In this document: positions 1 through 59,690 of the stretch, in pieces
Position numbering within the stretch: the stretch's first letter is position 1
Layout of the letters: each line of letters opens with the position of its first letter
Source of the DNA: Nemertoderma westbladi
Taxonomy: Eukaryota > Animalia > Xenacoelomorpha
NCBI GenBank assembly: GCA_032718475.1
Contig: JAUCBJ010008555.1
Span: 62,001 to 126,000 of the forward strand
DNA length: 64,000 nt
Direction: 5' to 3'
Program-made: the position numbers and the translations under genes
Notes under the pieces: generated by a model
Told to the model about the DNA's origin: nothing
Seen by the model: only the letters and a program-made list of their open reading frames with translations
The model's database searches: none

Positions 1-3000
1 GCTCCGATGTTATTATTTCCCATTTACCTTCAATATCTGACGACTGCTCCGATGTTATTATTTCCCATTTACTTTCAGTATCTGACGACTGCTCCGATTT
101 TATTATTTCCCATTTACTTTCAGTATCTGACGACTGCTCCGATGTTATTATTTCCCATTTACTTTCAGTATCTGAGGACTGCTCCGATGTTATTATTTCC
201 CATTTACCTTCAATATCTGACGACTGCTCCGATGTTATTATTTCCCATTTACTTTCAGTATCTGACGACTGCTCCGATTTTATTATTTCCCATTTACTTT
301 CAGTATCTGACGACTGCTCCGATGTTATTATATCCCATTTACATTCAATATCTGACGACTGCTCCAATGTTATTATTTCCCATTTACTTTCAGTATCTGA
401 CGACTGCTCCGATGTTATTATTTCCCATTTACTTTCAGTATCTGACGACTGCTCCGATGTTATTATTTCCCATTTACTTTCAGTATCTGACGACTGCTCC
501 GATGTTATTATTTCCCATTTACTTTCAGTATCTGACGACTGCTCCGATGTTATTATTTCCCATTTACTTTCAGTATCTGACGACTGCTCCATTGTTATTA
601 TTTCCCATTTACTTTCAGTATCTGACGACTGCTTCGATGTTATTATTTCCCATTTACTTTCAGTATCTGACGACTGCTCCATTGTTATTATTTCCCATTT
701 ACTTTCAGTATCTGACGACTGCTCCGATGTTATTATTTCCCATTTACTTTCAGTATCTGACGACTGCTCCATTGTTATTATTTCCCATTTACTTTCAGTA
801 TCTGACGACTGCTCCGATGTTATTATTTCCCATTTACTTTCATTATCTGACGACTGCTCCGATGTTATTATTTCCCATTTACTTTCAGTATCTGACGACT
901 GCTCCGATGTTATTTTTTCCCAAATACTTTCAGTATCTGACGACTGCTCCGATGTTATTGTTTCCCATTTACTTTCAGTATCTGGCGACTGCTCCGATGT
1001 TTTTATTTCCCATTTACTTTCAGTATCTGACACTGCTCCGATGTTATTATTTCCCATTTACTTTCAGTATCTGACGACTGCTCCATTGTTATTATTTCCC
1101 ATTTACTTTCAGTATCTGACGACTGCTCCGATGTTATTATTTCCCATTTACTTTCAGTATCTGACGACTGCTCCATTGTTATTATTTCCCATTTACTTTC
1201 AGTATCTGACGACTGCTCCGATGTTATTATTTCCCATTTACTTTCATTATCTGACGACTGCTCCGATGTTATTATTTCCCATTTACTTTCAGTATCTGAC
1301 GACTGCTCCATTGTTATTATTTCCCATTTACTTTCAGTATCTGACGACTGCTCCGATGTTATTATTTCCCATTTACTTTCAGTATCTGACGACTGCTCCG
1401 ATGTTATTATTTCCCATTTACTTTCAGTATCTGACGACTGCTCCGATGTTATTTTTTCCCAAATACTTTCAGTATCTGACGACTGCTCCGATGTTATTAT
1501 TTCCCATTTACTTTCAGTATCTGACGACTGCTCCGATGTTATTATTTCCCATTTACTTTCAGTATCTGACGACTGCTCCGATGTTATTATTTCCCATTTA
1601 CTTTCAGTATCTGACGACTGCTCCGATGTTATTATTTCCCATTTACTTTCAGTATCTGACGACTGCTCCGATGTTATTATTTCCCATTTACTTTCAGTAT
1701 CTGACGACTGCTCCGATGTTATTTTTTCCCAAATACTTTCAGTATCTGACGACTGATCCGATGTTATTGTTTCCCATTTACTTTCAGTATCTGACGACAG
1801 CTCCGATGTTATTTTTTCCCAAATACTTTCAGTATCTGACGACTGCTTCGAGGTTATTATTTCCCATTTACTTTCAGTATCTGACGACTGCTCCGATGTT
1901 ATTATTTCCCATTTACTTTCAGTATCTGACGACTGCTCCGATGTTATTATTTCCCATTTACTTTCAGTATCTGAGGACTGCTCCGATGTTATTATTTCCC
2001 ATTTACCTTCAATATCTGACGACTGCTCCGATGTTATTATTTCCCATTTACTTTCAGTATCTGACGACTGCTCCGATTTTATTATTTCCCATTTACTTTC
2101 AGTATCTGACGACTGCTCCGATGTTATTATTTCCCATTTACTTTCAGTATCTGACGACTGCTCCGATGTTATTATTTCCCATTTACTTTCAGTATCTGAC
2201 GACTGCTCCGATGTTATTATTTCCCATTTACTTTCAGTATCTGAGGACTGCTCCGATGTTATTATTTCCCATTTACCTTCAATATCTGACGACTGCTCCG
2301 ATGTTATTATTTCCCATTTACTTTCAGTATCTGACGACTGCTCCGATTTTATTATTTCCCATTTACTTTCAGTATCTGACGACTGCTCCGATGTTATTAT
2401 TTCCCATTTACTTTCAGTATCTGAGGACTGCTCCGATGTTATTATTTCCCATTTACCTTCAATATCTGACGACTGCTCCGATGTTATTATTTCCCATTTA
2501 CTTTCAGTATCTGACGACTGCTCCGATTTTATTATTTCCCATTTACTTTCAGTATCTGACGACTGCTCCGATGTTATTATTTCCCATTTACTTTCAGTAT
2601 CTGAGGACTGCTCCGATGTTATTATTTCCCATTTACCTTCAATATCTGACGACTGCTCCGATGTTATTATTTCCCATTTACTTTCAGTATCTGACGACTG
2701 CTCCGATTTTATTATTTCCCATTTACTTTCAGTATCTGACGACAGCTCCGATGTTATTTTTTCCCAAATACTTTCAGTATCTGACGACTGCTTCGATGTT
2801 ATTATTTCCCATTTACTTTCAGTATCTGAGGACTGCTCCGATGTTATTATTTCCCATTTACCTTTAATATCTGACGACTGCTCCGATGTTATTATTTCCC
2901 ATTTACTTTCAGTATCTGACGACTGCTCCGATGTTATTATTTCCCATTTACTTTCAGTATCTGAGGACTGCTCCGATGTTATTATTTCCCATTTACCTTC

Positions 3001-4289
3001 AATATCTGACGACTGCAACGATGTTATTATATCCCATTTACTTTCAATATCTGACGTCTGCTCCGCTGTTATTATTTCCCATTTACTTTCAGTATCTGAC
3101 GACTGCTCCGATGTTATTATATCCCATTTACTTTCAGTATCTGACGACTGCTCCATTGTTATTATTTCCCATTTACTTTCAATATCTGACGACTGCTCCA
3201 TTGTTATTATTTCCCATTTACTTTCAGTATCTGACGACTGCTCCGATGTTATTATATCCCATTTACTTTCAGTATCTGACGACTGCTCCATTGTTATTAT
3301 TTCCCATTTACTTTCAGTATCTGACGACTGCTCCGATGTTATTATATCCCATTTACTTTCAGTATCTGACGACTGCTCCATTGTTATTATTTCCCATTTA
3401 CTTTCAGTATCTGACGACTGCTCCATTGTTATTATTTCCCATTTACTTTCAATATCTGACGACTGCTCCGATGTTATTATTTCCCATTTACCTTCAATAT
3501 CTGACGACTGCTCCGATGTTATTATTTCCCATTTACTTTCAGTATCTGACGACTGCTCCGATGTTATTATATCCCATTTACTTTCAGTATCTGACGACTG
3601 CTCCGATGTTATTATATCCCATTTACTTTCAGTATCTGACGACTGCTCCATTGTTATTATTTCCCATTTACTTTCAGTATCTGACGACTGCTCCGATGTT
3701 ATTATATTCCATTTACTTTCAGTATCTGACGACTGCTCCATTGTTATTATTTCCCATTTACTTTCAATATCTGACGACTGCTCCGATGTTATTATTTCCC
3801 ATTTACCTTCAATATCTGACGACTGCTCCGATGTTATAATTTCCCATTTACTTTCAGTATCTGACGACTGCTACGATGTTATTATATCCCATTTACTTTC
3901 AGTATCTGACGACTGCTCCGATGTTATTATATCCCATTTACTTTCAGTATCTGACGACTGCTCCATTGTTATTATTTCCCATTTACTTTCAGTATCTGAC
4001 GACTGCTCCATTGTTATTATTTCCCATTTACTTTCAATATCTGACGACTGCTCCGATGTTATTATTTCCCATTTACCTTCAATATCTGACGACTGCTCCG
4101 ATGTTATTATTTCCCATTTACTTTCAGTATCTGACGACTGCTCCGATTTTATTATTTCCCATTTACTTTCAGTATCTGACGACTGCTCCGATGTTATTAT
4201 TTCCCATTTACTTTCAGTATCTGACGACTGCTCCGATGTTATTATTTCCCATTTACTTTCAGTATCTGACGACTGCTCCGATGTTATTC
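1..4289 (+). repeat. 45-bp minisatellite (~95 copies, continues beyond the window) whose unit spans the exon 1 splice acceptor
   Basis: Unit tttcccatttactttcAG/TATCTGACGACTGCTCCGATGTTATTA; 180-bp higher-order period visible at 2221-2760. Confidence 0.97.
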
Positions 4290-4388
4290 CTGACTGCCCT
4301 GACGGGGCTCGATGTACCGATATTTTCGGCCAGGGCTCCAGCTGTACCTGTTTACCTGGTTACGATGGCGACGGTACTGTTTGCACGG
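4263..4388 (+). CDS. Exon 1 in window (EGF: SDDCSDVIPDCPDGARCTDIFGQGSSCTCLPGYDGDGTVCT)
   Basis: tttcag acceptor is the last unit of the 45-bp array; donor G/gtaagt; 6-Cys EGF pattern. Confidence 0.85.
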
Positions 4389-7300
4389 GTAAGTTATTTT
4401 TATTGTATTCATATCCGTTAGTTTAGGAACTATTCAGTCAAACATGTTTTTAATCAATTTCTATTTGATATTCACGATCACCTTTGTACTTTTTTACTTT
4501 TTACTTTTAACACCTTTTTACTAATAATTATTTTATTATATTGAAGGGCTATAATCATGATCCCTGTGATGTGAGGTATGTGGTTTGAGACAAGTGTAAT
4601 TTCGTAATTTCGTAATATTTATCATATTTATTTACTTTAGACATCAATGAATGTGTGACTTTGGGTTCTTCCGCCTGTCTCCCCATGGCAACATGTAACA
4701 ACACCCCCGGCGGTTACACCTGCTCATGTCCAGTCGGTTACTATGGAGACGGAAAGATTAATTGCGACACGGACCACGAATGTACAGCAGGGTTGAATTG
4801 CGACGAAAGTTCGGCTCATTGTGAAAACACAGACTACGGTGCACATTGTGTCTGTGATGCGGGTTAGTTGCTCTTCCTTCAAAGTATTCTAGATTTTTCC
4901 TTTTATCACTATCACTATCATCATTATTACTTTAATTTTAATTTTGAAATAACTTGTTGGCGTTTAAGTTTTAATTTTCATCAGTCAAGGTAAATCCTTT
5001 GCCTATAGTGGTAAGTTGTCTTCTTTGACTTCCGGTCGGGAGGCCGTGGTTCGGTCCCTACACGGAGCAGCACTTTTTGGGCACAGTGCTTTATAAATGC
5101 TGCAGCTTAGGCCAACCCAGGCTTTCATCCTTGACTGTTCGGCAAATGGGGGAATGAAGGTAATTTGGGAAACATAGTGGAAGAGTTTAATGTCGGAAGA
5201 TTGCCCTTATGGTGAACAGGTATTCCCTATGGCTTAATAATTAATAAGCCTAAAATTTATTCTCCCACTCACTGGTAAATTTTTGTTTCATCATTTTAGG
5301 TTTCATCGGCGATGGAGTGACTTGTGAGGATATCAATGAATGCACAGCCAATAGGGATCCCTGTCCCGAATCCAACACGCATTGCGAGAACTCCCAGGGG
5401 TCATACAGCTGTCCTTGCAACTCTGGGTTCGAACCCAGTCCAGGTAACTATAACACAGATTTATAGGGAACTCACCAAAATCACATCTGTTGAATATTTT
5501 CATTTGACGTAAATCTTTGGTCTGCTCGAAGAACCAAGAAGTTTTAGTAACTAACAATTAAATAACGTTATAACGTCGCCCTTACGGATAGTGGCGTAAG
5601 TTGACCTCAAGTGTAATAAATTTTAGTTTATTGTTTTGGTTAGAAAATACTACCACTGTAACCTGCACCTTACCCTTAATATTTAATATTTGGTCACAAC
5701 ACACATAGTTTTGTTGTTTGCGGTCATTTTGCGTCACTAACTCGGTCGTTAATAATACGAAGCCTCTTGGCGCCGTCGCAATCAACCCAGTAGGCCTATC
5801 TGTGACTCACAATGCCAGAATCCCGCTGCGATCCCAGCCACCTGTCCAATTGTTGGGAGGAAACAAAAGTTCATTAATATTATTATTATTATATTTTATT
5901 AATATTATAAGGATTATTTTGTAGACGGAAATGGTTGCGTCGATATAGACGAGTGTAGCAACGGCGAGGCGAACTGCGATGTGAACGCGGTTTGCGAGAA
6001 TTGCCCCGGAGGCTACTCCTGTATATGTAACGATGGTTACTTCGGTAACGGGCACACCTGCTTCGGTTAGTGTATTACCGTATAGGAGGCCAGTCGATCA
6101 CTCGGTTAATAAATACAATGTCCGCGTCGCGTCGATGTTATAATGTATAAAACCTTCATTTAATGTAACAATATAACATAAATATAACAATAAACTGCCA
6201 TTTTCTCTCTCTCTCTCTCTCTCCGCAGATGTTGATGAATGTTCCCGTGGTAACCACAACTGTTCGCCCAACGGGGAATGCCAGAATACTGCGGGAGGTT
6301 ACGAGTGTGTCTGTAGAGACGGTTACCTTGGGGACGGGTTTGTTTGCGACCAAGATAACAGTTGCCAGGTGGGTTGTTTTTAGTTAGTAAAAGGTACTTA
6401 ATACTTGACAGCTTAAATTTTTAATAAAGCGAACGATAATATTACACCGCTTAATATATCGTCAGGTATATTTTTTGGATGAGACGCCAGGTGTTCTATT
6501 ATCCATATTTTAATGAAAATTTATTGATCCGAATCAGATAATTAATCGATTTCTAGATTAATTCTGATCAATTGTTTGTTGTTTCTAATTAATTTAAATG
6601 TGATAATTAATAAATTGTTACAGAGTATCGGCGGGTGTTCCGCTAACGCTATGTGCACCAGACAAAATGGACAGGCACACTGTGAATGTAACCATGGTTA
6701 CGAGGGCGACGGACATATATGCACCCCAGTTAACGAGTGTGCAGACAGGTGTGTGAATAAACATTTTATATTTCTTACTTATTTCCCTACTTAACTTTTT
6801 TACTTTTAATTACCTCTATTTATTATCATTTCTGCTTTTTATTTTGTAGTTCCTTGAACCGTTGCCATGCCAACGCACAATGTACAGACACCCAAGCTGG
6901 CTATAACTGTGATTGTTTACCTGGGTTCCAAGGCGATGGATTCGTCTGTTACGGTAAGTTTTATTTTTATTCGAAAAATATTATTAATTATTAATTATGA
7001 TGGAGTTGATTAATATATTTTTTGGACAACTAAATTTAAATATTTTGAAATATTTCTTAGATGAGAACGAATGTATTTCCGATCCATGTGTAAACGCCGT
7101 CTGCATAAACAGCGCCGGTTCCTACGAATGTGTCTGTAAACCTGGTTACCAAGGCAACAACTGCGATAACGTAAACGAATGTCTCGGAGATCCTTGCCAC
7201 GAGTTGGCGACCTGTGCCGATTCCGACGGGAGCTTTGTGTGTACATGTATCGAAGGTTTGTCTATAATCATTTATTTATTATTAGAAAGCCAGGCTATAA

Positions 7301-10300
7301 GAACAAAACTAAATCATAATTCGGTTTCTGGGTTAGTCCGAAGCGAAAAGATAAACAAATATTTAACCATCTTATCTAATACCGATATCACTATGAAGCA
7401 ACCAATTTAATATATTATGCATGCACTGCGGCAGCTCCAAACCAAAACTCTTTTTGACTTTTCGAGATAAACGCGTTTAAAGTTTTTGGACTTTAAACAG
7501 CTGGCATTTGGTTGAAATTTAATTTGATGACTTATAATTTTGTGTACCTTTACAAATTGTACATATATATTAGTGCCAAAACTTTTTTTTAAATTTATTC
7601 CTTACTTTTCATATAAATCGACTTACACGGTTTTGGTATGGTAGATAAGAAAACAATTGTAATTTTTGATGCATCCATACCCAGTAACGTCATGATTCCC
7701 ATTTCAAAACACAGAACTAATTGCCCACACCAAAACCCAGTAAACTAACATTTAACTTTTCCAATCAGTTACCTTTCCCATGCCAAAACCAAGTAACTGA
7801 CAAGTCCCTTCGCCAAAACCCAGTAACTCTGCTGACTTCCTTCGCCAACGGTTAGCGAAAACAAAGAGGCAACATTCTAGAATATAATATTCTAGAACAT
7901 TTAATTATTTGCCTACGTCTGTTGCGTTGCCGGAGTTACTGGTTTTTTTTTGGTTTGGCATAGTATCTGCATTCGGGAAATCTCACGTCAAAACCCAGTA
8001 TCTCAAACTGCTGGAATCCCAGTAACTCGGTTTACTGGGTTTTGACGTAAATCTGACATTGACAATATACATACTGGGTTTTGAGTTGGACAATTTGTCT
8101 TTCGGAAACGATACTCGATTTTGTTCAGAAAATACCGGTGAAAACCCAGTAAAGAATTTTGCTCGAAACCCAGTAAGTGCAGTTACTGGGTTTTGGCGTA
8201 GGATTTTGGGATTTTTGAGCACATACTGGGTTTTGATGGAGTAACTTTTTCAAAATAACACCAGAAAGGATAAACGAAACCCAGTAACTAGCATTACTGT
8301 GTTTCGACGTGGTATTTGCTCTAAATTAGCTAATTTAGTTAATTAATTAATTGTTAATACTGCGAAATCGGTTAATGCTATGGTTTCGAAACTGAGTCAG
8401 ATGAATTCTACGCCCCCAAAAACCCCAAAAATCGAAAAAAATAGATTTCGAAAAAAATTGGCATACTGGGTTTTGGTTTGGAGCTGCCGCCTGTATCATA
8501 AGAATAATTCCTAATAATATAATAATAATATTCATGTAATTGTAATTGCAATAATTTTTTGGTTATGAATGCATTATTTTTGTAACATATTTTACAGAAA
8601 AGCGTTGGCACCGTAATTTCTTATTTTATTGGCCTTTTTAAGCAGATTTTTTAAACATTGCATTTTAACTGGGCTTTGGATAAATACCGAATTAAATTTT
8701 TGTTGGTGTATTTTAAAGCAATAGGTGGAACCAAACAAAGACCGTAAATTTTGATTAGTATTATTTTTGCATATTCTTAAGCCAAACTAAAAAAACGAAG
8801 TCCTATAAAATAATTACGTAATTTATATACAATTTATTGTGTTTGTTGTTGCTTAGGAACCGTTGGTAACGGAGTAGATTGCGTCGATGAAGATGAGTGC
8901 GTCACTGGCCACAATTGTATGGGCGACCACGTCTGCGTGAACCAAGAACCTGGATACGACTGCCAATGTCCGCCGGGCACACGGTCCATTGTCGGTTCCT
9001 GTATCGGTGAGTAGCCACACACACGCATATTGTTACTCAAAAACTCCCATATTTGTGGGTTTGTAACACCCTAATAGCTAAGAGCATTGAAACTAAGTCC
9101 CTTGCTGTTGCTGTTGGTTCCTGATTTCTGGACAGACAGACCTGTAACAATTTATAATCGTTTTATTGTTGTTTTTGTTTTTTCTTATTACACAATATAG
9201 ACATCGATGAATGCGCTGAGGGGACTGATACCTGCCATGATGATGCTACATGTACCGATACGATTCCATTTTACACTTGCGAGTGTAATCCTCCGACAAT
9301 AGGGAACGGACATCAGTGTGCAGGTTGGTAGCTATGGTAATCCTCCGACAATAGGGAACGGACATCAGTGTGCAGGTTGGTAGCTATGGTAATCCTCCGA
9401 CAATAGGGAACGGACATCAGTGTGCAGGTTGGTAGCTATGGTAATCCTCCGACAATAGGGAACGGACATCAGTGTGCAGGTTGGTAGCTATGGTAACCCA
9501 CCGACAATAGGGAACGGACATCAATGTGCAGGTTGGTAGCTATGGTAACCCTCCGACAATAGGGAACGGACATCAATGTGCAGGTTGGTAGCTATGGTAA
9601 TCCTCCGACAATAGGGAACGGACATCAGTGTGCAGGTTGGTAGCTATGGTAACCCACCGACAATAGGGAACGGACATCAATGTGCAGGTTGGTAGCTATG
9701 GTAACCCTCCGACAATAGGGAACGGACATCAATGTGCAGGTTGGTAGCTATGGTAATCCTCCGACAATAGGGAACGGACATCAACGTGCAGGTTGGTAGC
9801 TATGGTAATCCTCCGACAATAGGGAACCGACATCAATGTGCAGGTTGGTAGCTATGGTAATCCTCCGACAATAGGGAACGGACATCAATGTGCAGGTTGG
9901 TAGCTATGGTAATCCTCCGACAATAGGGAACGGACATCAATGTGCAGGTTGGTAGCTATGGTAATCCTCCGACAATAGGGAACGGACATCAATGTGCAGG
10001 TTGGTAGCTATGGTAATCCTCCGACAATAGGGAACCGACATCAATGTGCAGGTTGGTAGCTATGGTAATCCTCCGACAATAGGGAACCGACATCAATGTG
10101 CAGGTTGGTAGCTATGGTAATCCTCCGACAATAGGGAACGGACATCAGTGTGCAGGTTGGTAGCTATGGTAATCCTCCGACAATAGGGAACGGACATCAG
10201 TGTGCAGGTTGGTAGCTATGGTAATCCTCCTACAATAGGGAACGGACATCAATGTGCAGGTTGGTAGCTATGGTAATCCTCCGACAATAGGGAACCGACA

Positions 10301-13300
10301 TCAATGTGCAGGTTGGTAGCTATGGTAATCATCCGACAATAGGGAACGGACATCAGTGTGCAGGTTGGTAGCTATGGTAATCCTCCGACAATAGGGAACG
10401 GACATCAGTGTGCAGGTTGGTAGCTATGGTAATCCTCCGACAATAGGGAACCGACATCAATGTGCAGGTTGGTAGCTATGGTAATCCTCCGACAATAGGG
10501 AACCGACATCAATGTGCAGGTTGGTAGCTATGGTAATCCTCCGACAATAGGGAACGGACATCAATGTGCAGGTTTGTAGCTATGGTAACCCACCGACAAT
10601 AGGGAACGGACATCAGTGTGCAGGTTGGTAGCTATGGTAATCCTCCGACAATAGGGAACGGACATCAGTGTGCAGGTTGGTAGCTATGGTAATCCTCCGA
10701 CAATAGGGAACCGACATCAATGTGCAGGTTGGTAGCTATGGTAATCATCCGACAATAGGGAACGGACATCAATGTGCAGGTTGGTAGCTATGGTAATCCA
10801 CCGACAATAGGGAACGGACATCAATGTGCAGGTTGGTAGCTATGGTAATCCTCCGACAATAGGGAACGGACATCAATGTGCAGGTTGGTAGCTATGGTAA
10901 TCCTCCGACAATAGGGAACCGACATCAATGTGCAGGTTGGTAGCTATGGTAATCCTCCGACAATAGGGAACGGACATCAGTGTGCAGGTTGGTAGCTATG
11001 GTAATCCTCCGACAATAGGGAACCGACATCAATGTGCAGGTTGGTAGCTATGGTAATCCTCTGACAATAGGGAACGGACATCAATGTGCAGGTTGGTAGC
11101 TATGGTAACCCACCGACAATAGGGAACCGACATCAATGTGCAGGTTGGTAGCTATGGTAATCCTCCGACAATAGGGAACGGACATCAATGTGTAGGTTTT
11201 CTAGTGTAGATTTTCGGGTTATTGTCCTGTTTTATAAAACCGGTCCATATCTTCAGGTTATTGTCCTGTTTTATAAAACCGGTCCATACCTTCAGGTTAT
11301 TGTCCTGTTTTATAAAACCGGTCCATACCTTCAGGTTATTGTCCTGTTTTATAAAACCGGTCCATATCTTCAGGTTATTGTCCTGTTTTATAAAACCGGT
11401 CCATATCTTCAGGTTATTGTCCTGTTTTATAAAACCGGTCCATATCTTCAGGTTATTGTCCTGTTTTATAAAACCGGTCCATATCTTCAGGTTATTGTCC
11501 TGTTTTATAAAACCGGTCCATACCTTCAGGTTATTGTCCTGTTTTATAAAACCGGTCCATACCTTCAGGTTATTGTCCTGTTTTATAAAACCGGTCCATA
11601 TATTCAGGTTATTGTCCTGTTTTATAAAACCGGTCCATATCTTCAGGTTATTGTCCTGTTTTATAAAACCGGTCCATATCTTCAGGTTATTGTCCTGTTT
11701 TATAAAACCGGTCCATATCTTCAGGTTATTGTCCTGTTTTATAAAACCGGTTCATATCTTCAGGTTATTGTCCTGTTTTATAAAACCGGTTCATACCTTC
11801 AGGTTATTGTCCTGTTTTATAAAAACGGTCCATATCTATAGGTTATTGTCCTGTTTTATAAAACCGGTCCATATCTTCAGGTTATTGTCCTGTTTTATAA
11901 AACCGGTCCATACCTTCAGGTTATTGTACTGTTTTATAAAACCGGTCCATATATTCAGGTTATTGTCCTGTTTTATAAAACCGGTCCATATCTTCAGGTT
12001 ATTGTCCTGTTTTATAAAACCGGTCCATATCTTCAGGTTATTGTCCTGTTTTATAAAACCGGTCCATATCTTCAGGTTATTGTCCTGTTTTATAAAACCG
12101 GTCCATATCTTCAGGTTATTGTCCTGTTTTATAAAACCGGTCCATATCTTCAGGTTATTGTCCTGTTTTATAAAACCGGTCCATATCTTCAGGTTATTGT
12201 CCTGTTTTATAAAACCGGTCCATATCTTCAGGTTATTGTCCTGTTTTATAAAACCGGTCCATATCTTCAGGTTATTGTCCTGTTTTATAAAACCGGTCCA
12301 TACCTTCAGGTTATTGTCCTGTTTTATTAAACCGGTCCATATATTCAGGTTATTGTCCTGTTTTATAAAACCGGTCCATATCTTCAGGTTATTGTCCTGT
12401 TTTATAAAACCGGTCCATATCTTCAGGTTATTGTCCTGTTTTATAAAACCGGTCCATATCTTCAGGTTATTGTCCTGTTTTATAAAACCGGTCCATATCT
12501 TCAGGTTATTGTCCTGTTTTATAAAACCGGTCCATATCTTCAGGTTATTGTCCTGTTTTATAAAACCGGTCCATATCTTCAGGTTATTGTCCTGTTTTAT
12601 AAAACCGGTCCATATCTTCAGGTTATTGTCCTGTTTTATAAAACCGGTCCATATCTTCAGGTTATTGTCCTGTTTTATAAAACCGGTCCATATATTCAGG
12701 TTATTGTCCTGTTTTATAAAACCGGTCCATATCTTCAGGTTATTGTCCTGTTTTATAAAACCGGTCCATATCTTCAGGTTATTGTCCTGTTTTATAAAAC
12801 CGGTCCATATCTTCAGGTTATTGTCCTGTTTTATAAAACCGGTCCATATCTTCAGGTTATTGTCCTGTTTTATAAAACCGGTCCATATCTTCAGGTTATT
12901 GTCCTGTTTTATAAAACCGGTCCATATCTTCAGGTTATTGTCCTGTTTTATAAAACCAGTCCATATCTTCAGGTTATTGTCCTCTTTTATAAAACCGGTC
13001 CATATATTCAGGTTATTGTCCTGTTTTATAAAACCAGTCCATATCTTCAGGTTATTGTCCTGTTTTATAAAACCGGTCCATATCTTCAGGTTATTGTCCT
13101 GTTTTATAAAACCGGTCCATATATTCAGGTTATTGTCCTGTTTTATAAAACCGGTCCATATATTCAGGTTATTGTCCTGTTTTATAAAACCGGTCCATAT
13201 CTTCAGGTTATTGTCCTGTTTTATAAAACCGGTCCATATCTTCAGGTTATTGTCCTGTTTTATAAAACCGGTCCATATCTTCAGGTTATTGTCCTGTTTT

Positions 13301-31300: not shown

Positions 31301-34300
31301 TACGACACTATCTTAGATTTAAATATTGATATTTTTATTGTAACGGAAACATGGTTTTTAAAATGTACGGCAGCTGACCATGAAAGTGAGCTGAACAAAC
31401 ACTCTTATAAATACTATAACAAACCCCGCGCTGACAACTCGGGGTACGGTGGTGTCGGGTTATTTATCAGGGAGTCATTACCCCATCTCAGACGCACTGG
31501 CAGGGCCTTTAACTCGCAAGGTCTAGAATTAATATTTATTGATATTTTCATCGTAAAATTAAAAGTTCTCGTGATTGGTCTTTACACACCCACCGAACCT
31601 ACTGCACAGTACTGGGATACCTTGTACGATGTTATTTGTAACATCACGACAGCGTATAAATATGATGGAATTCTTCTTTTAGGTGACTTTAATACCAACT
31701 GTTTTCACCAAACTCCTTTTCTAGTAAACAAATTCTGCTCTTTAACTGGTTTTACCCAAGTGATAAACTCTATAACTCGATCCCAATCCCAATCTTGCAT
31801 TGACTTATTATTCACTAATTTACTTCCCCTGAAAATTAAGGCGGACGCACATGCTGATATTTGTTTTGACAACAACCTTCCTATTTCTGACCACTCGCCA
31901 ATTTTTATCGACTTAAACGTTGATATCAAACCGCCACCCCTTTTCATTCGTACCGTATGGGATTATGACAAAGCGAACTGGGGAGAATTCAGACAATTCC
32001 TAAATAGCAAATGTCTTAGTAGCTACTTTGGTGCACATGCCGATGACCCTGTTGAAGGTGTTAATTTTCTCACAGAGACTTTACTTGAAGGTACGAATAG
32101 ATTTATTCCCAGCCACAAAATAAAAACCAGATCCAGCGACCCTAAGTGGATAAATAATGAGTTGCGCTCACTGTTCAGGCGCAGGGAAAGGCTACACAAA
32201 CGAGCCAAAGGGACACCCAACAACTCAAATCAATGGGTCATTTTCAGAAAATATCGAAATTTTGTCACTCAAAAAGTTCGCTTAGCTAAGGCTTCATATT
32301 CTAGTGAATTGTATTTATCAACCAAAAGTTCCAGCAACTTAGACTCTAAGAAATGGTTTTCAATAGTAAAGTCGGTACTGGGGAAAAACAAATTATCATC
32401 CATCCCGTTCTTATTTGATGGCGACACAGCGGTGTATGAAGCCTTTGACAAAGCCCAAGTTCTAAATAACAGATTTGTCATTAATTCCACTTTACCAGGT
32501 TTATTACCGACGACCCCAGTACAATCCACACCTCAGACAGCACCACCGCTAGTACATCCCACACACCAGCCTGTACCACCGGTGGTACTTTCTGTAGTAC
32601 CTCCAGTGCTTCACCCCATACCCCTGACTGTACCACCGGTAGTACATCCCACACCTCCGATTGTACCTCCAGCAGTGCACCCCATACCCCAGACTGTACC
32701 ACCGGTAGTGAGTGAGTGTTTAAAGCTCATCTATCCCATCATAGTAGACATGTACCGTACAACAAGAGTCCCACAAGAAATGAAAACAAATAAGTTGGTG
32801 CCAGTTCCAAAGAAGGGCAACCTAACACTCTATGGTTCTTTTCGGGGAATCTCATTGATCTCGATTGCTGCAAAACTATACAATAGAATTCTATTAAATC
32901 GCATCAGGGATCCCATTGAGAGACTACTACGTGGAAATCAGAATGGGTTCCGTAAAGGTCGTGGGACCATGGAGCCCATTTTGGCACTTAGAAGGATAAT
33001 TGAAGAGTTATCAAAAAAGAAAGACAGGCATCTGGCTGTTATCTTTGTTGACTTCTTCAAGGCCTTTGATTCAGTCTCTCGCTCACGTATGTTCAGCATA
33101 CTTTCATTATATGGGATTCCTGATGAAATTATTGCAGCAATCAGATCAGTATACGATGGTTCGGCAGCATTTGTGTCTACTGTTGACGGTGACACAGAAC
33201 CATTTGAAGTGTTATGGGGCGTCCTCCAAGGAGACACACTTGCACCATTCTTGTTCATTATTGTGGTTGACTATGTTCTACGCATGTCCTTAGATCATCA
33301 TAATGATGATGGGGTGATGATAACTCCACCTACTGGCTCCAGAAGTCGAGGAAATCCTGCCAAGTACCTAACTGATCTAGACTTTGCTGATGACTTAGGA
33401 GTACTCTCAGAATCATTAGAGGGAGCCCAACGGCTCCTCAGCTCATTAGAACATGCTGCTTCTAGTGTTGGTCTTTTTATTAACTCCAGAAAGACCAAAA
33501 TTCTTACAGTTAACTTTGAAAGTCCTCAGCAAGTCTCTGATCGGATGAGCATAAGCTCAAAGGATGGTATGCTTGAGCATGTGGACGACTTCTGTTACCT
33601 GGGATCATGGATCCGGAAGTCAGGTGAGGACCTTCGAATACGTAAGGGAAAGGCATGGGCAGCCTTGAATAGGCTTTCCAGGATTTGGAAGTCACCTAGA
33701 ATTAATCGGAAACTTAAGGTCCGATTATTTAGAGCAGCAGTAGTTCCAGTACTCCTCTACGGGAGTCCATGCTGGGCTCTAACTGCTGAGGACACCAAAT
33801 CTCTGGATGGCACATTCACAAGAATGCTACGCCGGGTACATTGTGCCAAGTACAATGCACACATCTCCAACCAGACACTATATAACATTGGAGGTGTCTC
33901 ATTGGTTCCCCCAAGCTTGACACTAGAACAAAATCGCCTCCGCTTTGCAGGACATTGCTTTCGCCGTGAGGACCAGCCAGTGCATAATCTTGTACTTTGG
34001 CAGCCTCATGGAGTGAATAAGCATGGTGGACAGCCCATGACTTTCTTGAGACGCATCTTAAAGGACACTGGCCTTAAAGATGCGGATGATCTAGCAAATG
34101 TCATGGGTGATAGGGAGTTGTGGCGGTGCAATTTTGTTGACAAGCCGGCACAGCATTCTTAAAAATGCAGCTGCAATGCAGCATGCCGATCCTAGTAGTA
34201 GTAGTACATCCCACACCTCCGATTGTACCTCCAGCAGTGCACCCCATACCCCTGACTGTACCACCGGTAGTACATCCCACACCTCCGATTGTACCTCCAG

Positions 34301-37300
34301 CAGTGCACCCCATACCCCAGACTGTACCACCGGTAGTACATCCCACACCTCCGATTGTACCTCCAGCAGTGCACCCCATACCCCTGACTGTACCACCGGT
34401 AGTACATCCCACACCTCCGATTGTACCTCCAGCAGTGCACCCCATACCCCAGACTGTACCATCGGTGGTATATCCCGTGGACCTGCAGCGGTACATCCCA
34501 TACCACAATCTTTACCCCCGACTTCACTACACCCCGACCCCTCTACTGTTCAGGGCGTCCCTGAAGAAGCAGTCCTAGAGCACATACAGATTTCAGAAGA
34601 GGACGTAGGTTCAGGTATTTCATCCTTAAAAACGAATGGATCTCCTGGTATCGATGGAATAAGTAACAGAGTTATTAAATCATTATCCGGCTCTTTAATA
34701 GTTGGTCTAACTATTTTATTTAACGCGTTACTTAACATTTCTATTTTTCCACAATCCTGGAAGTATTCTAATATTACTCCAATTTTTAAAAAGGGAGAAT
34801 TTTATAATTCTGGCAACTATCGCCCAATTTCTTTATTAAATAACCTTTCTAAGCTTTTTGAAACTGTTGTCAGAAAGCATATCTGGAATTTCCTATGGCA
34901 TAAAATATCGAAACGACAATCAGGATTTATTCCCGGCGATAGTTGCCAAAACCAACTTCTCTTCCTATACGACTCCTGGTGCCAGGCCTGGGACGAAGGC
35001 GACGTCACACAAGTAATATTCTGTGATGTCACAAAAGCCTTTGACAGGGTATGGCACGCAGGTCTCCTTGAAAAATTATATAGAATGGGAATCCGCGGTC
35101 GTTTATTGGCATGGTTCCAATGTTATTTATCAGGGCGTTGGCAGCGTGTAGTACTAGATGGGACATGCTCACTGTTTCTGGCGGTGCTCGCAGGCGTACC
35201 CCAGGGAAGTGTGCTCGGTCCCATCTTATTTATTATTTATATAAATGACCTTGTTGATGTATTGTCGGCAAACTGTTCACTGTTTGCTGACGATACATCT
35301 CTTTCATCTAGAATCAGTCATCCTGTTGTGCGCGCTCACTTTCTTAACCACGAACTTCATGAACTACACACTTGGGCTACTAAATGGCTCGTAACTTTTA
35401 ACCCAGAGAAAACCATTGTAATGACTATGTGTGGTTCCATCCCCTACCAGACAGCAGGGGCATACCCAAGGGGGGGGTAGTGGGGGTAATTACCCCCCCC
35501 CCCCCGTCAGAAAATTGGAATGTTATTAAAAAATGTGTAATATCAAGAGAGGGATGATTTGTGTTCCGCGAAAGTGTTTAAAGTACATACACCACCAAAA
35601 GTACTGTTTTGAGGAATTCTAGTCTATTCGGTGTCGGTGTATTCCCTGACCAGCTTGTGTGAATGAACTCCATTCACACAAGCATATAACATTGTCAATA
35701 ACTCCTGTGGTGTCCTACCATTACATCATTATTAATTCAGTAATTTCCTTTATATGTTATAGTCTCTTTGTCTTTCAAATATTCAATTATTGAACAATTA
35801 ACATTCAACATGATTAACATTGAGGCGGGATATTAATTCGCCAAGGCGGGATTTGCGTCCCCCCCCCCCCCCTGTCTCCCACTGGTAATCAATTTTAAAT
35901 TTGAGTTTTACCCCCCCCCCCCCCCCCCCCCCCCCCCACCAGAAAATCCTGGGTACGCCCCTGCCAGACAGTGCCACTATATCTAAATGGTGAGGCCCTT
36001 CCGTGTGGTGAGACTCACAAACACCTGGGACTGGTATTTTCTTCCAATTTCAAGTTCAATGACCATGTCCTAGAACTAATTAACTCAGTTTCGAGAAATC
36101 TATTGGTTCTGCGGAAAACTAAATACGTCCTATCCAAAGATGCAATACTAAAAATATACAAAACATTTATACGTCCTAAACTGGAATACGGCTGTGCGGT
36201 CTGGAACAACATATCTCAAGAAATGTCTGAACTACTTGACAATTTTGAACTTGAAATTCTAAGAATTGCCACTGGTGCTCCATCTCGCACTTCACATAGC
36301 AAGTTATATACCGAATGCAACATACAGAGTCTCTCTTCCAGGCGCTCAGCCATCTGCTTAATAACTTTTTATAAAATTATTAACAAGTTAACTCCGGAGT
36401 ACTTATTTTCCAGAATCCCAATTACAGTGGGGCAAAACCCATCACATAGTTACCCTCTCAGAAACAGCGCCAACATTTCCCAAATATCGTACCGTAAAGA
36501 CCTTTATGGCAAATCTTTCTTTCCAAACACTATAAAAAAATGGAACGATCTCCCTTTTTCAACACGTTCACTCCCTCTCCCGACGTTTAAATCCCGACTC
36601 ATTTCAAATAATGTTATCAAACCATTTTACTGTGTTGGAACCCGCAAATTTCAAATCATTGTCTGCCAGTTGCGACTGCGGTGTAGTAAATTATCTGCAG
36701 ACATGGTATCCAGGCACCTTCAGGACTCACCTGAGTGCACCTCATGCGGTGCTGCCACAGAAAACGCCTTTCACTTTTTTATAACTTGTCCGAGTTACTC
36801 TGGTGCCCGCCGTACACTGAAGGTTGGGTTGGAAGCTCTAGGGGCTTCACTGTCATTAAACTCTGTTTTAGAGGGACAAGGTATATCTGCGACCGATTAC
36901 AACAAATATTTCTCCCTTCTAAACACCTTTATTGTCTCTACTCAGCGTTTTCGGCTACTTTCACAATAAAACAAAACCATTAGCCCAAAATATTTACTTA
37001 CTTGCTTGCATATATACCTTTTCCCTTCAACTGTCTTTGTTAGCTAATTAAATAGATTCATTTGGTAATGTAAATTAAATTTCACTGTATGTTGCTACAT
37101 TATATTATTTTTATTTTTTATGTTTATTGATGTGCCTTCTATTTTGTGGCTTGGGTTGTGAGTCAGCGCGCCCGTCGGTCTAGTATATTTTTATTTTATA
37201 AAGTTTATTGTTTACCATATATTTACAACTGTCACTCCTAGCAACTCTAATCTGATATAATAACTAAGCTGGATATAGGGCCTTATCTGTCCGAATTGTT

Positions 37301-40300
37301 ATTGTTATTGTCAATTGTCATAATGTGACCCTGTTAAGCTTAATTCAATATACAGTCCTACCGCTAGAGAAAACAGTTAGTCACATATATATAGACGGGC
37401 GTATATAGTGCAACAGTTAGTCACTTAAGTATAGACGGGCGTATATAGAGCAACAGTTAGTTACACAAGTATAGACGGACGTATATAGTGCAACAGTTAG
37501 TAACATAAGTAGGCGGACGTGTACAGTGCAACAGTTAGTCACATAAGTATAGACGGACGTATACAGTGCAACAGTTAGTTACATAAGTATAGACGGACGT
37601 ATACAGTGCAACAGTTAGTCACTTAAGTATAGACGGGCGTGTACAGTACAACTGTTAGTAACATAAGTAGGCGGACGTGTACAGTGCAACAGTTAGTCAC
37701 TTAAGTATAGACGGGCGTGTACAGTGCAACAGTCAGTCACATAAGTATAGACGGATGTGTACAGTGCAACAGTTTGTCACATAAGTATAAACGAGCGTAT
37801 ACAGTGCAACAGTTAGTCATATAAGTATAGACGAGCGTATACTTTCAATAACTGTGGAACAGCTATTCATGTAATTTTTGTGTTTATTTTGTTTTTAATC
37901 ATTTTAATATCGCGTTGATTATGCGTTTCTCAATCACCCCGTATAATATTTGCAGACATCAACGAGTGTCTGAGAGGCACACACAACTGCGACCTTTTGC
38001 ACGGTATCTGCCATGACACCCCCGGTGGCTACACCTGCTCCTGTGAAACCGGTTACTATGGAAACGGTTTCTTCTGTGATTGTAAGTAGCAGCCGTGATA
38101 AAAAAGGCGCAAACTAATTTATTCTTAAACCTTTTTCTGTTTTAAAACTCTCTCTGTGCCCGTATACATATTAATAATTAATAATATAATTATTGTCAAC
38201 TATCCTCTGTCCCAAGTTCTCCTCTTTCACTTTAATTTATCTCTAGATATGTGCCGCGAAGGTGTTTGTCCACCGCTTCAGACCTGCGTCGTGGTAAACA
38301 ACCTCCCGACCTGCGTCTGCGTGTGCGAAGACCCACTTTGCGAGCCGTTGCCCGGCCAGGTATGCGGTAGTGATGGCAACACGTACTCCGACGCAGAGAG
38401 TCTGTTTTTGACGGCCTGTCACTCTGGCGAAGCAATTACCATGGAATACGCAGGGGCGTGCGCAGGTGAGATTATATAGTTACAAAAAGTTTAATTAACG
38501 TTGGTCCTATAGCAGTTGTTGTTAAATCCCTTGTCTTCAATTTAGTTCTCTGGCTATAGTGGTCGTGGTTCGTCTGGTTTTATATAGTTATCAGGGTAGT
38601 GCTGATCACTGAAATTAATTTCAAAGAATTTCAGTTCAGTTAAATTTTATATTTAAGTTTTCCATCGTCTCTAAATTCAGTGTCAGTTTACCATATCACT
38701 GAAAATTATTTTGTTATTTCAGTTTCAGATGACCAATTTATTTTATTAATTTCAGTTTCAGATTGCTAAACAATTTCAGTAATTTCAGTTTTATTTCAGT
38801 TTCAGTGTTTATTGCAGCAGTTTGGATGAGTCCGTACTGGGATAAGACTTAAGACTTTGTGCGAATTTCTTGGCCAAATAGACGAAGAAAACTTTACTTT
38901 TAATTTTTACGCTGTTTTTTAACGTCTTATTGTTTATCATACGGGTACGGGTATCTTGTAGTTTTGTGTAGCATTTATGCGCAATAAATTTATTAGGGTG
39001 TGAGCTGCTTAAAGTTAGGTAGTGAGGAGAGATAAACAACCGACGTTTGAACCATGAAGGTCTCGCTCTATAGGCCCCCGTCGGTAGAATTAATTACTTC
39101 CCGGTGTCCATTAGTGATTTAGTCCACTCCAAATATTTATATTGATCCGTTTCCTAGGTGATTGCACCGCTGATATCTTCTGCCGCCCGGGAACACATTG
39201 CGAGGTTGTAGACAACCGACCCCAGTGTGTCTGCGACCCCTGCAGTGATGAGGAGTTGAACAGCGGGATCCTCTGCGCCTCCGACGGGGAGGTTTACGAT
39301 AATATCTGCGCGTTCAACGAACACAACTGTTACTATAGTAGCGTCTTAACCATCGTCAACTTCGGTGAATGCAACAGAGGTAAGTGGAGCGTGTTGCCGC
39401 TGCAACATATAACCCCCATCCCGACTGCCAAGTAAAAATTAAAACCAAAATAAAAATACCAAATTTAGACACTAAACTGCTAAAAGCGTGCACTGTTTTT
39501 TTTGTACCCGGTACGCTTTGTATTTTCTGTTTGTTGGTTCTTGGAAAACCCGCGCAGCCAAGAGACGAAACTGGAACTCTGCGTACAGGTTCGGGTCAGG
39601 TTGTTACTGTCGGTCTGCCCGTCGCAAGGAACTGTACCTAAATAACAGGTCTAGTTTCATGACATTTCGATAACTTATTTATCTTATCTATATTATTTAA
39701 CTAAATTATACTTTTAAAGGCAACGAAAACTAATTTTAGTTTGAGATTGTTTGAATAATTTCCCATAGATTGTAGCTACAGTGATTGGTCGGATTGGTCC
39801 CAGTGCAGCGCTCTCTGTGGGGAAGGCGTTAGGATTTCTACCAGAGCGATTAGTAAACAGGCCACTGGTAACGGGGAACCTTGTGACGATACTTCATTGC
39901 AACGGGAAATGCCGTGCGACTTGCCGCCATGTCCCGATAGTAAGTTTATAGTACCGATAGTAGGTTTATAGTACCGATAGTAAACTTATAGTACCGATAG
40001 TAAGTTTACTGTATAGTACCGATAGTAAGTTTATAGTACCGAAAGTATAGTACCGATAGTAAGTTTATAGTACCGATAGTAAGTTTATAGTACCGATAGT
40101 AAGTTTATAGTACCAAAAGTAAGTACCGATAGTAAACTTATAGTACCGATAGTAAGGTTATAGTACCGATAGTAAGTTTACTGTATAGTACCGATAGTAA
40201 GTTTATAGTACCGAAAGTAAGTACCGATAGTAAACTTATAGTACCGATAGTAAGGTTATAGTACCGATAGTAAGTTTACTGTATAGTACCGATAGTAAGT

Positions 40301-43300
40301 TTATAGTACCGAAAGTAAGTTTATAGTACCGTTAGTAAGTTTATAGTACCGATAGTAAGTTTATAGTACCGAAAGTAAGTACCGATAGTAAACTTATAGT
40401 ACCGATAGTAAGGTTATAGTACCGATAGTAAGTTTACTGTATAGTACCGATAGTAAGTTTATAGTACCGAAAGTAAGTACCGATAGTAAACTTATAGTAC
40501 CGATAGTAAGGTTATAGTACCGATAGTAAGTTTACTGTATAGTACCGATAGTAAGTTTATAGTACCGAAAGTAAGTACCGATAGTAAACTTATAGTACCG
40601 ATAGTAAGGTTATAGTACCGATAGTAAGTTTATAGTACCGAAAGTATAGTACCGATAGTAAGTTTATAGTACCGATATTAAGTTTATAGTACCGATAGTA
40701 AGTTTATAGTACCGATAGTAAGTTTATAGTACCGATAGTAAGTTTATAGTACCGATAGTAAGTTTATAGTACCGATAGTTAGTTTATAGTACCGATAGTA
40801 AACTTATAGTACCGATAGTAAGGTTATAGTACCGATAGTAAGTTTACTGTATAGTACCGATAGTAAGTTTATAGTACCGAAAGTATAGTACCGATAGTAA
40901 GTTTATAGTACCGATAGTAAGTTTATAGTACCGATAGTTAGTTTATAGTACCGATAGTAAACTTATAGTACCGATAGTAAGGTTATAGTACCGATAGTAA
41001 GTTTACTGTATAGTACCGATAGTAAGTTTATAGTACCGAAAGTATAGTACCGATAGTAAGTTTATAGTACCGAAAGTATAGTACCGATAGTACGTTTATA
41101 GTACCGATAGTAAGTTTATAGTACCGTTAGTAAGTTTATAGTACCGAAAGTAACTTTATAGTACCGATAGGAAGTTTATAGTACCGATAGCAAGTTTATA
41201 GTACCGATAGTAAGTTTCTAGTACCGATAGTAAGTTTATAGTACCGAAAGTAACTTTATAGTACCGATAGTAAGTTTATAGTACCGATAGTAAGTTTATA
41301 GTACCGATAGTAAGTTTATAGTACCGATAGCAAGTTTATAGTACCGATAGTAAGTTTATAGTACCGATAGTAAGTTTATAGTACCGATAGTAAGTTTATA
41401 GTACCGATAGTAAGTTTATAGTACCGATAGTAAGTTTATAGTACCGATAGTAAGTTTATAGTACCGATAGTAAGTTTATAGTACCGATAGTAAGTTTATA
41501 GTACCGATAGTAAGTTTATTTTTACCGATAGTAAGTTTATAGTACCGATAGTAAGTTTATAGTACCGATAGTAAGTTTATAGTACCGATAGTAAGTTTAT
41601 AGTACCGATAGTAAGTTTATAGTACCGTTAGTAAGTTTATAGTTTGTTTGTAAGATTATTGTCCGGATAGTGAGTTTGATAATGGTTTAGATCAATAAGT
41701 CCCTTGTCATGTATTTATCATCAATATTCAGTAGTTTCTTTCATGCCGAGAGAAATTAATGCAAAATTAGTTTTTATGTACAGTGCAATATTATTACAGT
41801 ATTATAAGTTTGTAAGTAGTGTACTAAAACTACAACTGAATTTCTTTCAGTTTGTACATTAGGCTCACACTACCACAATACCAATACCAGCATGCATACA
41901 TCTTGCTACATTTAGCATTACACTAAAAAAATGATCAGCCAATTAGATTGGGTTTTGCAGAAGTCGGGGAAACACGAAAAGATTACAAAACTGGCCATTC
42001 AGGGCCACCATATTACACTACGAATTTATCGTTTGGTAATAATGAGTCAGAATTACTATTACTAAAATTACGCAATGTAACCCACGTATTTATCTCCAGC
42101 TGTTTGTTTCAATCACGTCTGCCCTAACCACGGGGTATGCTATGCTATCGCCGATGGTGTCCCTGGATGCCGATGTCTCACCTGTGTCGGAGTACCTGTG
42201 GACCCAGTCTGCGGTTCGGATGGAATTACCTACAACTCTGAATGCCAGCTCAAGCGATTGTCGTGTCGCAACAGCATTTCGGTTACTATGGTGAAGAGTG
42301 GATCTTGTAGTGATGGTAAGCTAATTAATACATTACTTGTAGAGTTTGGATCGTCGTTTGGCGAAGAATTATTTACTTACAGTATTATTATTACCTTTAG
42401 GTTTGTAATTATTAGTAATTGCGTTACCGTATTACCCTGTACTGGTTGTAGTTGCGTTACCGTATTTGTTTTTTTTGTACCTGTAGGCTACGCCCACAGT
42501 CAATGTATCTATTTAATATTTATAACCATAAATGTTACAGCAATTAAGCACAATAACAACATTTAAGCACATTCATTAGCCTAATATTACAAACATAATT
42601 ATAAACTAATTTTTATTATTAAATAATCTTACCGGTAAATTTATTAAATCACGAAAATGAGCAATTATAGACCTCTATTTATAAAAAAAAGAAACACCGC
42701 ATGGTCCCTCCAATCTTACACCACCCGCGCGTCCGCAATGGCTACCAAGATTGAGGTATCAGCCATATCAAGCATCGCCTTAGTGTCGATCTGCTTCCGT
42801 GAACACACATTATTACCGAACGTAATAAAACGAAGCTGATTTTGCGGCGAAGCCACTGAATCGCTTCATTGTAGCTGATCTATCTCTTCACTGCTAGCTA
42901 ATGAGCGAGACGTTTGGTGAAGATACGTGCACTCTGACCCATTCCTCCAGTAGCCGCTAGAATGAAAGGACAGAACGTTGACATTCTACATCCCGAACCC
43001 GCTCTTCATATTGGGCCCCCTTTCGGTTCTCGTGATGGTTATAAGCTCTATCGACGCCCAAAGAAGAATTGGACGGTGCTAGGGGGTTTTAAATACAGAA
43101 ATATCGATCAACAGTTTCTCATAACGACCTCCCCAGAAACCACTGACAGATACATCTAACCGAGCACCCTCATCCCTTGTGGTTGTAGAGCGATGGAATG
43201 TTTCCCAGGTGATTGTTGGAGTACAGGCTCGATTGAAATGTCATGAGCAACCTCGGTTAACGTGTTTTCAATGAAATCTCTGATTTCATTGTGACGGACC

Positions 43301-59355: not shown

Positions 59356-59690
59356 GCTAGTATTTTTTTAATAACTAATTTTAAAAGAAGGATTTCACTG
59401 CACTGAGGTAATATATTCAGAAATTAATTACATAGAAGACTTACACTGTATAAGTAATAAATAAATTCCTCTAAACTCAAATCAGTCATTTTTACAACAT
59501 GTAATCATAAAGCTATAGAAATTAAAATAATCTATAAAATATAATAATTACCTTGATATCAAATAAAACATTATATATATTGACAAATATAATATGTAAG
59601 TTTTTTAAAAATTGGCTCTTAGAACAACAACAACCTTTATTGATCTTGTAAAGGTTGTAAAAAAAATTATGTATTAGTGATGTGATAGTT

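What the first reader, a model, noticed from the sequence alone, without database searches (positions are those of the whole stretch)
1..41643. Four independent minisatellites each built from one of the gene's own exon-intron junctions
Seen: four unrelated arrays each have a unit that straddles a functional splice site. They are 45 bp at the exon 1 acceptor (~95 copies), 52 bp at the exon 10 donor (~37), 40 bp at the exon 18 donor (~42) and 20 bp at the exon 22 donor (~85). In every case the real site is the exon-proximal terminal copy and the array extends into the intron. The exon stays intact while dozens of near-identical decoy sites sit beside it. Inference: four hits in 25 exons suggests either a process that seeds tandem duplication at splice junctions (transcript-templated repair, R-loop or spliceosome-linked breaks) or a splicing rule that picks the exon-proximal site among identical competitors. 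I do not know of this as a named mechanism.
Basis: partly seen in the sequence, partly recalled or inferred. Interest (0 to 1): 0.85.

Follow-up and report, generated by a model that had tools for sequence, protein, structure and literature searches.

The report
Four "mirage" splice-site minisatellites, one gene
In one animal extracellular-matrix-type gene, four exon-intron borders are copied head-to-tail about 37 to 95 times into the neighbouring introns, the assembled transcript uses only the copy next to each true exon, and this is a large example of a repeat type already named "mirage" in lancelets and known from human genes, likely tolerated rather than useful.

Summary
Observation confirmed. 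A 25-exon EGF/Kazal/TSP1 gene carries four unrelated arrays whose units straddle a real splice site. A spliced contig uses the exon-proximal site at all four. At the acceptor array, 41 of 75 decoys are in frame and stop-free, so NMD cannot explain that choice. DNA contigs support arrays A, C and D; B's size is only weakly supported.

Four of five is above a survivor-only null (P about 0.01), but P is 0.06 once small arrays or two-fold persistence are counted, and the gene was picked post hoc.

The thing has a name: 'mirage' minisatellites (PMC3087553, PMC3902484). First-donor choice was shown for human F7 (PMC1557585). Spliced-mRNA templating is not supported. The scan already noted this pattern on many other pieces of this genome and in two other genomes (unchecked). 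A junction-directed seeding process stays open; no genome was held to test it.

The parts
1..4288 (+). Array A: 45-bp acceptor mirage, at least 95 copies (19 intron + 26 exon nt); open at the window's left edge; real acceptor AG|4263
   Evidence: spliced contigs of X4 and X5 enter at 4263
4263..48590 (+). Host gene, last 25 exons: calcium-binding EGF repeats, two Kazal-type exons, spondin-like TSP1, Kazal, cysteine-rich C-terminus; 5' part outside the window
   Evidence: GT..AG joints and contig coordinates
9285..11198 (+). Array B: 52-bp donor mirage, about 37 copies (39 exon + 13 intron nt); real donor 9323|GT
   Evidence: X4 contig matches exon 10 over 124 letters (9200-9323) and exon 19 starts at the expected record position
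11213..14362 (+).
16215..16310 (+). Possible decayed donor mirage at exon 15: two partial copies of the donor context 33 and 77 nt downstream
   Evidence: 14 and 13 of 18 matches against a control maximum of 12 in 23 other introns; weak
17914..19119 (+). Array C, first part: 40-bp donor mirage, about 31 copies (22 exon + 18 intron nt); real donor 17935|GT
   Evidence: X4 loose end shows unique exon-18 sequence, one unit's exon part, then exon 19
19120..37371 (.). Nested retroelement insertion splitting array C at a decoy exon|intron border: non-LTR elements plus a BEL/Pao LTR element (LTRs 19745-21495 and 29289-31031, 99.5% identical)
37372..37842 (+). Array C, second part, about 12 copies
39931..41643 (+). 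Array D: 20-bp donor mirage, about 82-87 copies (6-9 exon nt); real donor 39939|GT
   Evidence: X4 contig leaves at 39939 straight into exon 23 sequence

Best explanation
These are four independent 'mirage' minisatellites: short genomic stretches spanning an exon-intron border are repeated head-to-tail into the intron, the assembled transcript splices only at the copy joined to the whole exon, and the arrays likely arose as ordinary DNA-level tandem duplications that grew by slippage or unequal exchange and were tolerated. Shown: the units are contiguous exon-intron DNA; the proximal site is used at all four; the exon-derived parts of decoys show no coding constraint. Inferred: decoys lose because they carry only 6-39 nt of exon (exon definition) and, for donors, because the first site is taken, with NMD as a backstop for B, C and D but not A. 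Inferred: the excess at junctions comes from short ancestral introns (median 253 nt), longer persistence of arrays anchored on a copy under selection, and choice of this gene after the fact, rather than from a process aimed at splice sites.
For: Arrays and exon model. Proximal use: the 4823-nt X4 contig enters at 4263, places exon 19 at record 3329 and ends exon 22 at 4066, exactly as predicted with no decoy included; X5 agrees at exon 1. Decoys neutral: 10 synonymous to 44 other distinct changes against 58 to 215 possible, Fisher P 0.71; a stop-making change sits in 25 of 42 C decoys. No consistent gradient away from the functional copy. 0 of 35, 0 of 37 and 0 of 72 donor decoys are in frame and stop-free. 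Under the null, 12-30% of tolerated placements straddle a junction; with two-fold persistence P(at least 4 of 5) is 0.062, three-fold 0.14. Array E and arrays inside retroelements show frequent tandem growth away from junctions. Precedent: PMC3087553, PMC3902484 (passages), PMC1557585 (abstract, introduction, discussion).
Against: The plain survivor null is exceeded: P 0.010 (any straddle) and 0.0024 (full site) on host introns, 4e-5 and 9e-6 with mobile DNA counted, 0.011 for 4 of 15 arrays of all kinds. The persistence factor is assumed, not measured. Array E also carries a CAG|GT motif, so all five large units hold a splice-like signal. Unchecked scan notes describe the same pattern on many other pieces of this genome, some with hundreds of copies, which if true weakens the post-hoc argument. 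Contigs drop rare forms, so low-level decoy use is not excluded.
Confidence: 0.6

Rival explanations
1. Junction-directed origin: in this lineage duplications are seeded or expanded preferentially at exon borders, through transcription- or splicing-coupled breaks, R-loops on unspliced RNA, or recombination at the exon-intron chromatin and GC step. The splicing rule then lets them survive.
For: 4 of 5 large arrays at junctions, P 0.002-0.01 on the host-intron null; a possible sixth, decayed case at donor 15; sharp GC step, exons 53.5% against plain introns 33.3%; PMC3087553 calls the generating mechanism unclear and the phenomenon possibly general in cephalochordates.
Against: One gene, chosen post hoc; P 0.06 with small arrays or two-fold persistence; 44 of 49 junctions show no clear copy; unit ends fall 6-39 nt into exons and 11-19 nt into introns with no shared motif; no genome was held for the decisive test.
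Confidence: 0.25
2. Signal-dependent tolerance or use: long arrays persist only if they carry splice signals, for example spare donors that bind U1 and guard a suddenly long intron from premature cleavage, or AG|GT points used for stepwise (recursive) splicing. U1 protection and recursive splicing are recalled concepts, not read here.
For: GT is nearly invariant in donor decoys (changes 0/0 of 35, 1/0 of 34, 1/3 of 76) while the G of AG is the most changed position in A (19 of 93). B and E units hold CAG|GT.
Against: Changes inside an array are not independent and many other positions are also invariant. Neighbouring introns carry 5.5-18 kb of mobile DNA without such signals being evident. E's donor score (5.7) is below all 24 real donors (6.4-11.6). 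Contigs cannot show intermediates.
Confidence: 0.1
3. Assembly artefact, or repair templated by spliced mRNA.
For: B's size is only weakly echoed in DNA contigs (bin depth 120.5 against about 34 in X1, 47.8 against about 24 in X3). No long read spanning an array was seen.
Against: Copies differ in patterned ways and C is split by retroelements. X1, which carries a haplotype 1.4% different from the window, shows a 45-nt go-back joint at depth 2294 against about 31, and bins of 552 (C) and 2994 (D) against 25-29. No unit contains exon-exon sequence.
Confidence: 0.03

Closest known systems
Lancelet 'mirage' minisatellites (Adh3, globins BflGb6 and BflGb9, troponin C, PGBD5). Seen: matching passages of PMC3087553 and PMC3902484; the primary Adh3 paper (PMC117041) was not held
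   Same: [quoted passage not shown]
   Different: 37 to at least 95 copies against 3-6 for BflGb6; kb-long arrays that dominate their introns; one split by an 18-kb retroelement nest. The host is not shown to be a lancelet: its closest Branchiostoma EGF proteins are 50-51% identical, like crinoid and fish ones.
Human donor-spanning VNTRs: F7 IVS7 (37 bp x5-9), 6-16 (25 pseudo-sites), CBS IVS13 (15-20), lamin B2, PDGF. Seen: abstract, introduction and discussion of PMC1557585
   Same: First monomer spans the exon-intron border; the most upstream donor is used (F7, lamin B2, PDGF).
   Different: Three donor arrays and one acceptor array in one gene, with more copies. In 6-16 and CBS two nearby pseudo-sites are also used; that level of use could not be measured here. 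The paper's rule concerns donors only.
Intron gain by duplication across AG/GT proto-splice sites (Rogers model as summarised in PMC3087553; PMC3265369 seen only as a search listing)
   Same: Tandem duplication of DNA holding splice signals.
   Different: No new intron or exon is formed in the contig seen; the decoys stay intronic.

Membership tests
Mirage minisatellite | Head-to-tail repeat whose unit spans an exon-intron boundary of the host gene | tested here: met
   A, B, C, D. Not met for array E.
Mirage minisatellite | Many copies keep the AG or GT signal | tested here: met
   76 of 95, 36 of 36, 38 of 39, 73 of 77
Mirage minisatellite | Regular splicing is not disturbed | tested here: met
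   One X4 contig at all four sites, one X5 contig at A only; rare forms not visible in contigs
Mirage minisatellite | Length polymorphism or somatic instability | not testable with these tools
   Short-read contigs give no copy number
Mirage minisatellite | Host is a cephalochordate (where the name was coined; not a structural criterion) | tested here: inconclusive
   No close lancelet match among proteins up to 2000 aa; four unnamed distant hits for exon 24
F7-type donor VNTR with oriented 5' splice-site choice | Pseudo-sites are functional when the authentic site is mutated | not testable with these tools
   Needs minigenes; only proximal use was seen
Recursive splicing ladder | Exon-to-internal AG|GT junction intermediates (recalled definition) | not testable with these tools
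   Only contigs available; CAG|GT present in B and E units, absent at the decoy borders of A, C, D
Insertion templated by spliced mRNA | Unit contains exon-exon junction sequence | tested here: not met
   0 of 4 intron parts resemble the neighbouring exon (upstream exon end)

The most novel reading that the evidence does not exclude
This animal has a genome-wide process that seeds or amplifies tandem repeats at exon-intron borders, driven by transcription- or splicing-coupled DNA breaks, so that its introns grow mainly by copying their own splice sites; and its spliceosome picks the last of at least 76 near-identical acceptors without help from NMD.
Probability: 0.25. Interest if true: 0.75.

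Novelty: new member of a known kind. Interest (0 to 1): 0.38.

Why it matters
The structure is known, so this locus alone is not a new kind of element. Two things remain worth having. Array A is a natural test of 3' splice-site choice: 41 in-frame, stop-free decoy acceptors precede the real one and the transcript skips them, which a donor-scanning rule or NMD does not explain. And PMC3087553 leaves the origin of mirages unclear; a genome this rich in them would let a junction-seeding bias be measured against survivor bias for the first time in the literature I could search (searches found no genome-wide count).

Tried and rejected
No whole genome is held, so the genome-wide enrichment test was not run. 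No run was listed as RNA; X4 and X5 were treated as RNA because all their listed joints along the gene are GT..AG at predicted introns. X3 is identical to the window over 2142 nt and may be its source, so it is not counted as independent. Purifying selection on decoys through exchange with the exon: looked promising in B (37 of 52 copy-weighted changes synonymous) but not overall (P 0.71). Polar growth from the functional copy: Spearman -0.18, 0.21, 0.24, -0.27, inconsistent. A branch point supplied by the preceding decoy in A (CTGAC, 39 nt upstream): the motif class is as common after donors (8 of 21) as before acceptors (10 of 25), so it is a lead only. Selection against decoy AGs: 19 of 95 lost, but in 6 related haplotypes, not independent. 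Weak donors as targets: B and C rank 21 and 23 of 24, D 12; too few. Higher GC in junction units: 31-49% against 36% for E; no. Taxon placement by homology: agrin and generic EGF hits only, unnamed RT hits at up to 56%, unnamed exon-24 hits. Near-place look-up gave nothing. PMC10078293 and bioRxiv 2022.06.16.496473 (passages) do not treat junction-spanning units. PMC117041 was not held; its count of Adh3 arrays is unknown to me. No supplements were read.
Full report
Observation. Tandem Repeats Finder lists the four arrays at the stated places and sizes. Reading the sequence gave a 25-exon model on the + strand with GT-AG introns, compatible phases and no internal stop. Pfam finds calcium-binding EGF, Kazal and spondin-like TSP1 domains in 4 of 5 exons scanned. 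Each unit straddles a junction: A 19 intron + 26 exon nt at the exon 1 acceptor; B 39 exon + 13 intron at donor 10; C 22 + 18 at donor 18; D 6-9 exon nt at donor 22. Most copies keep the dinucleotide (76 of 95, 36 of 36, 38 of 39, 73 of 77). The five large units are unrelated (0 of 10 pairs above shuffles).

Corrections. A fifth large array (E, 39 bp x81, 11213-14362) fills most of intron 10 and touches no junction. C is split by 18.25 kb of nested retroelements, among them a BEL/Pao element with 99.5% identical LTRs, so C is older than that insertion (inference). A is cut by the window edge. That the intact site lies at the exon end of the array follows from the geometry of any such duplication; only its use needed a test.

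Which site is used. Six runs were listed, none recorded as RNA; four were laid. X4 and X5 give contigs whose joints along the gene are GT..AG at predicted introns, so I treat them as RNA. One 4823-nt X4 contig enters at 4263 from an upstream exon, matches exon 10 over 9200-9323, shows unique exon-18 sequence followed by one unit's exon part and exon 19, and leaves 39939 straight into exon 23. Its coordinates (exon 19 at 3329, exon 22 ending at 4066) equal the prediction with no decoy included. X5 agrees at exon 1 and does not cover the rest. Contigs drop rare forms, so minor decoy use is not excluded. For B, C and D no decoy is both in frame and stop-free (0 of 35, 37, 72), so NMD could hide their use; for A, 41 of 75 are (the open frame 1757-4426), so the proximal choice there should be real splice-site selection (inference).

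Artefact check. X1 carries a haplotype with 15 differences in 1079 and 15 in 1011 nt. It shows a 45-nt go-back joint at depth 2294 against about 31 and raised bins at C (552) and D (2994) against 25-29. B is raised only to 120.5 against about 34, so its size is not confirmed. These depths are sums over contigs, not copy numbers. X3 may be the window's source.

More than chance? With arrays collapsed and mobile DNA removed, introns have a median of 253 nt and 12-30% of tolerated placements straddle a junction. Four of five has P 0.010 (0.0024 if a full site is required; 4e-5 or less with mobile DNA counted). Four of 15 arrays of all kinds has P 0.011, and four of 8 host-born arrays including small ones 0.062. 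The unseen first intron was set to the median and the mobile-DNA limits are coarse. If junction arrays last twice as long because one copy is held by selection, P is 0.062 (the factor is assumed). The gene was chosen for showing the pattern. A scan of all 49 junctions found the four arrays, one weak relic at donor 15 (14 and 13 of 18 against a control maximum of 12) and two single marginal scores just above control (donor 21, acceptor 11) that I do not count. So there is an excess over the simplest null, but this locus cannot separate seeding from persistence and ascertainment.

Mechanism. Shown: units are contiguous genomic exon-intron DNA with no exon-exon sequence, which rules against spliced-mRNA templates but not against R-loops on unspliced RNA. 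Decoy exon parts are free of coding constraint (P 0.71) and show no consistent gradient from the functional copy. Inferred: a short duplication across the border, growth by slippage or unequal exchange, tolerance because only the terminal copy is joined to a whole exon. For donors PMC1557585 (abstract, introduction, discussion read) shows that identical downstream sites are functional but lose to the most upstream one. For the acceptor I rely on exon definition as described in that discussion; it was not tested here. Leads without support: the only branch-point-like motif 15-50 nt before the real exon 1 acceptor lies in the exon-derived part of the preceding decoy (control no different), and GT is nearly invariant in donor decoys while AG is often lost in A (events not independent).

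Known kin. PMC3087553 (passages) describes tandem repeats spanning either boundary in lancelet globins and Adh3, names them 'mirages', says they do not disturb splicing and that their origin is unclear. PMC3902484 (passage) adds troponin C and PGBD5. PMC1557585 lists five human genes. The primary Adh3 paper was not held. Three structural criteria are met here; length instability could not be tested. The host could not be placed: lancelet EGF proteins are 50-51% identical, like those of other phyla. Eight searches found no genome-wide count of such arrays; the library lacks most subscription papers.

Earlier scan notes. The name 'mirage' and two of the papers came to me from unchecked notes, and I read the passages myself. 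Those notes and searches report the same pattern on many other pieces of this genome, in another invertebrate genome, and in an octopod where it was said to be rarer than chance. I could check none of those loci and use them as leads only.

Verdict. Real, correctly seen, and a large, dense new member of a known kind. Interest is moderate: it rests on the in-frame acceptor array as a test of 3' splice-site choice and on the open question of junction-directed origin, which I put at 0.25.

Noticed in passing
window 19745-31031 (-): BEL/Pao LTR retrotransposon with a 2440-codon open frame, 1.75-kb LTRs 99.5% identical and a 5-bp target duplication; inserted into a non-LTR element, which itself holds a second RT element (about 32700-34200) and sits inside array C.
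   Followed up: partly
window 11213-14362: Array E has a pyrimidine-rich CAG|GT motif in each unit and is an open frame of 1055 codons on the + strand with no Pfam match; it starts 14 nt after array B ends and is not in the transcript contig.
   Followed up: partly
window 19119/37372, 32639-32709/34201-34271, 42420-42463/48006-48049: Three mobile insertions lie inside tandem repeats, two with long flanking duplications (71 and 44 bp); the one in array C falls at a decoy exon|intron border.
   Followed up: no
window 16215-16310: Two partial copies of the exon 15 donor context, possibly a decayed mirage.
   Followed up: partly
window 41640-41700: A degenerate copy of the D unit seems to lie just past the array's end, suggesting an older, longer array (seen by eye output).
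   Followed up: no
window 59661-60422 (+): A 253-codon cysteine-containing open frame without introns and without Pfam match, ending in a hydrophobic stretch; by eye like a surface-anchored protein exon.
   Followed up: no
window 7300-8500 and about 5610-5750: High-copy repeats inside introns 8 and 3 (depth 10-fold to several hundred-fold above single copy in DNA contigs).
   Followed up: no
window 61925-63348: 81-bp x17.6 array in G-rich sequence downstream of the gene, likely part of a mobile element.
   Followed up: no
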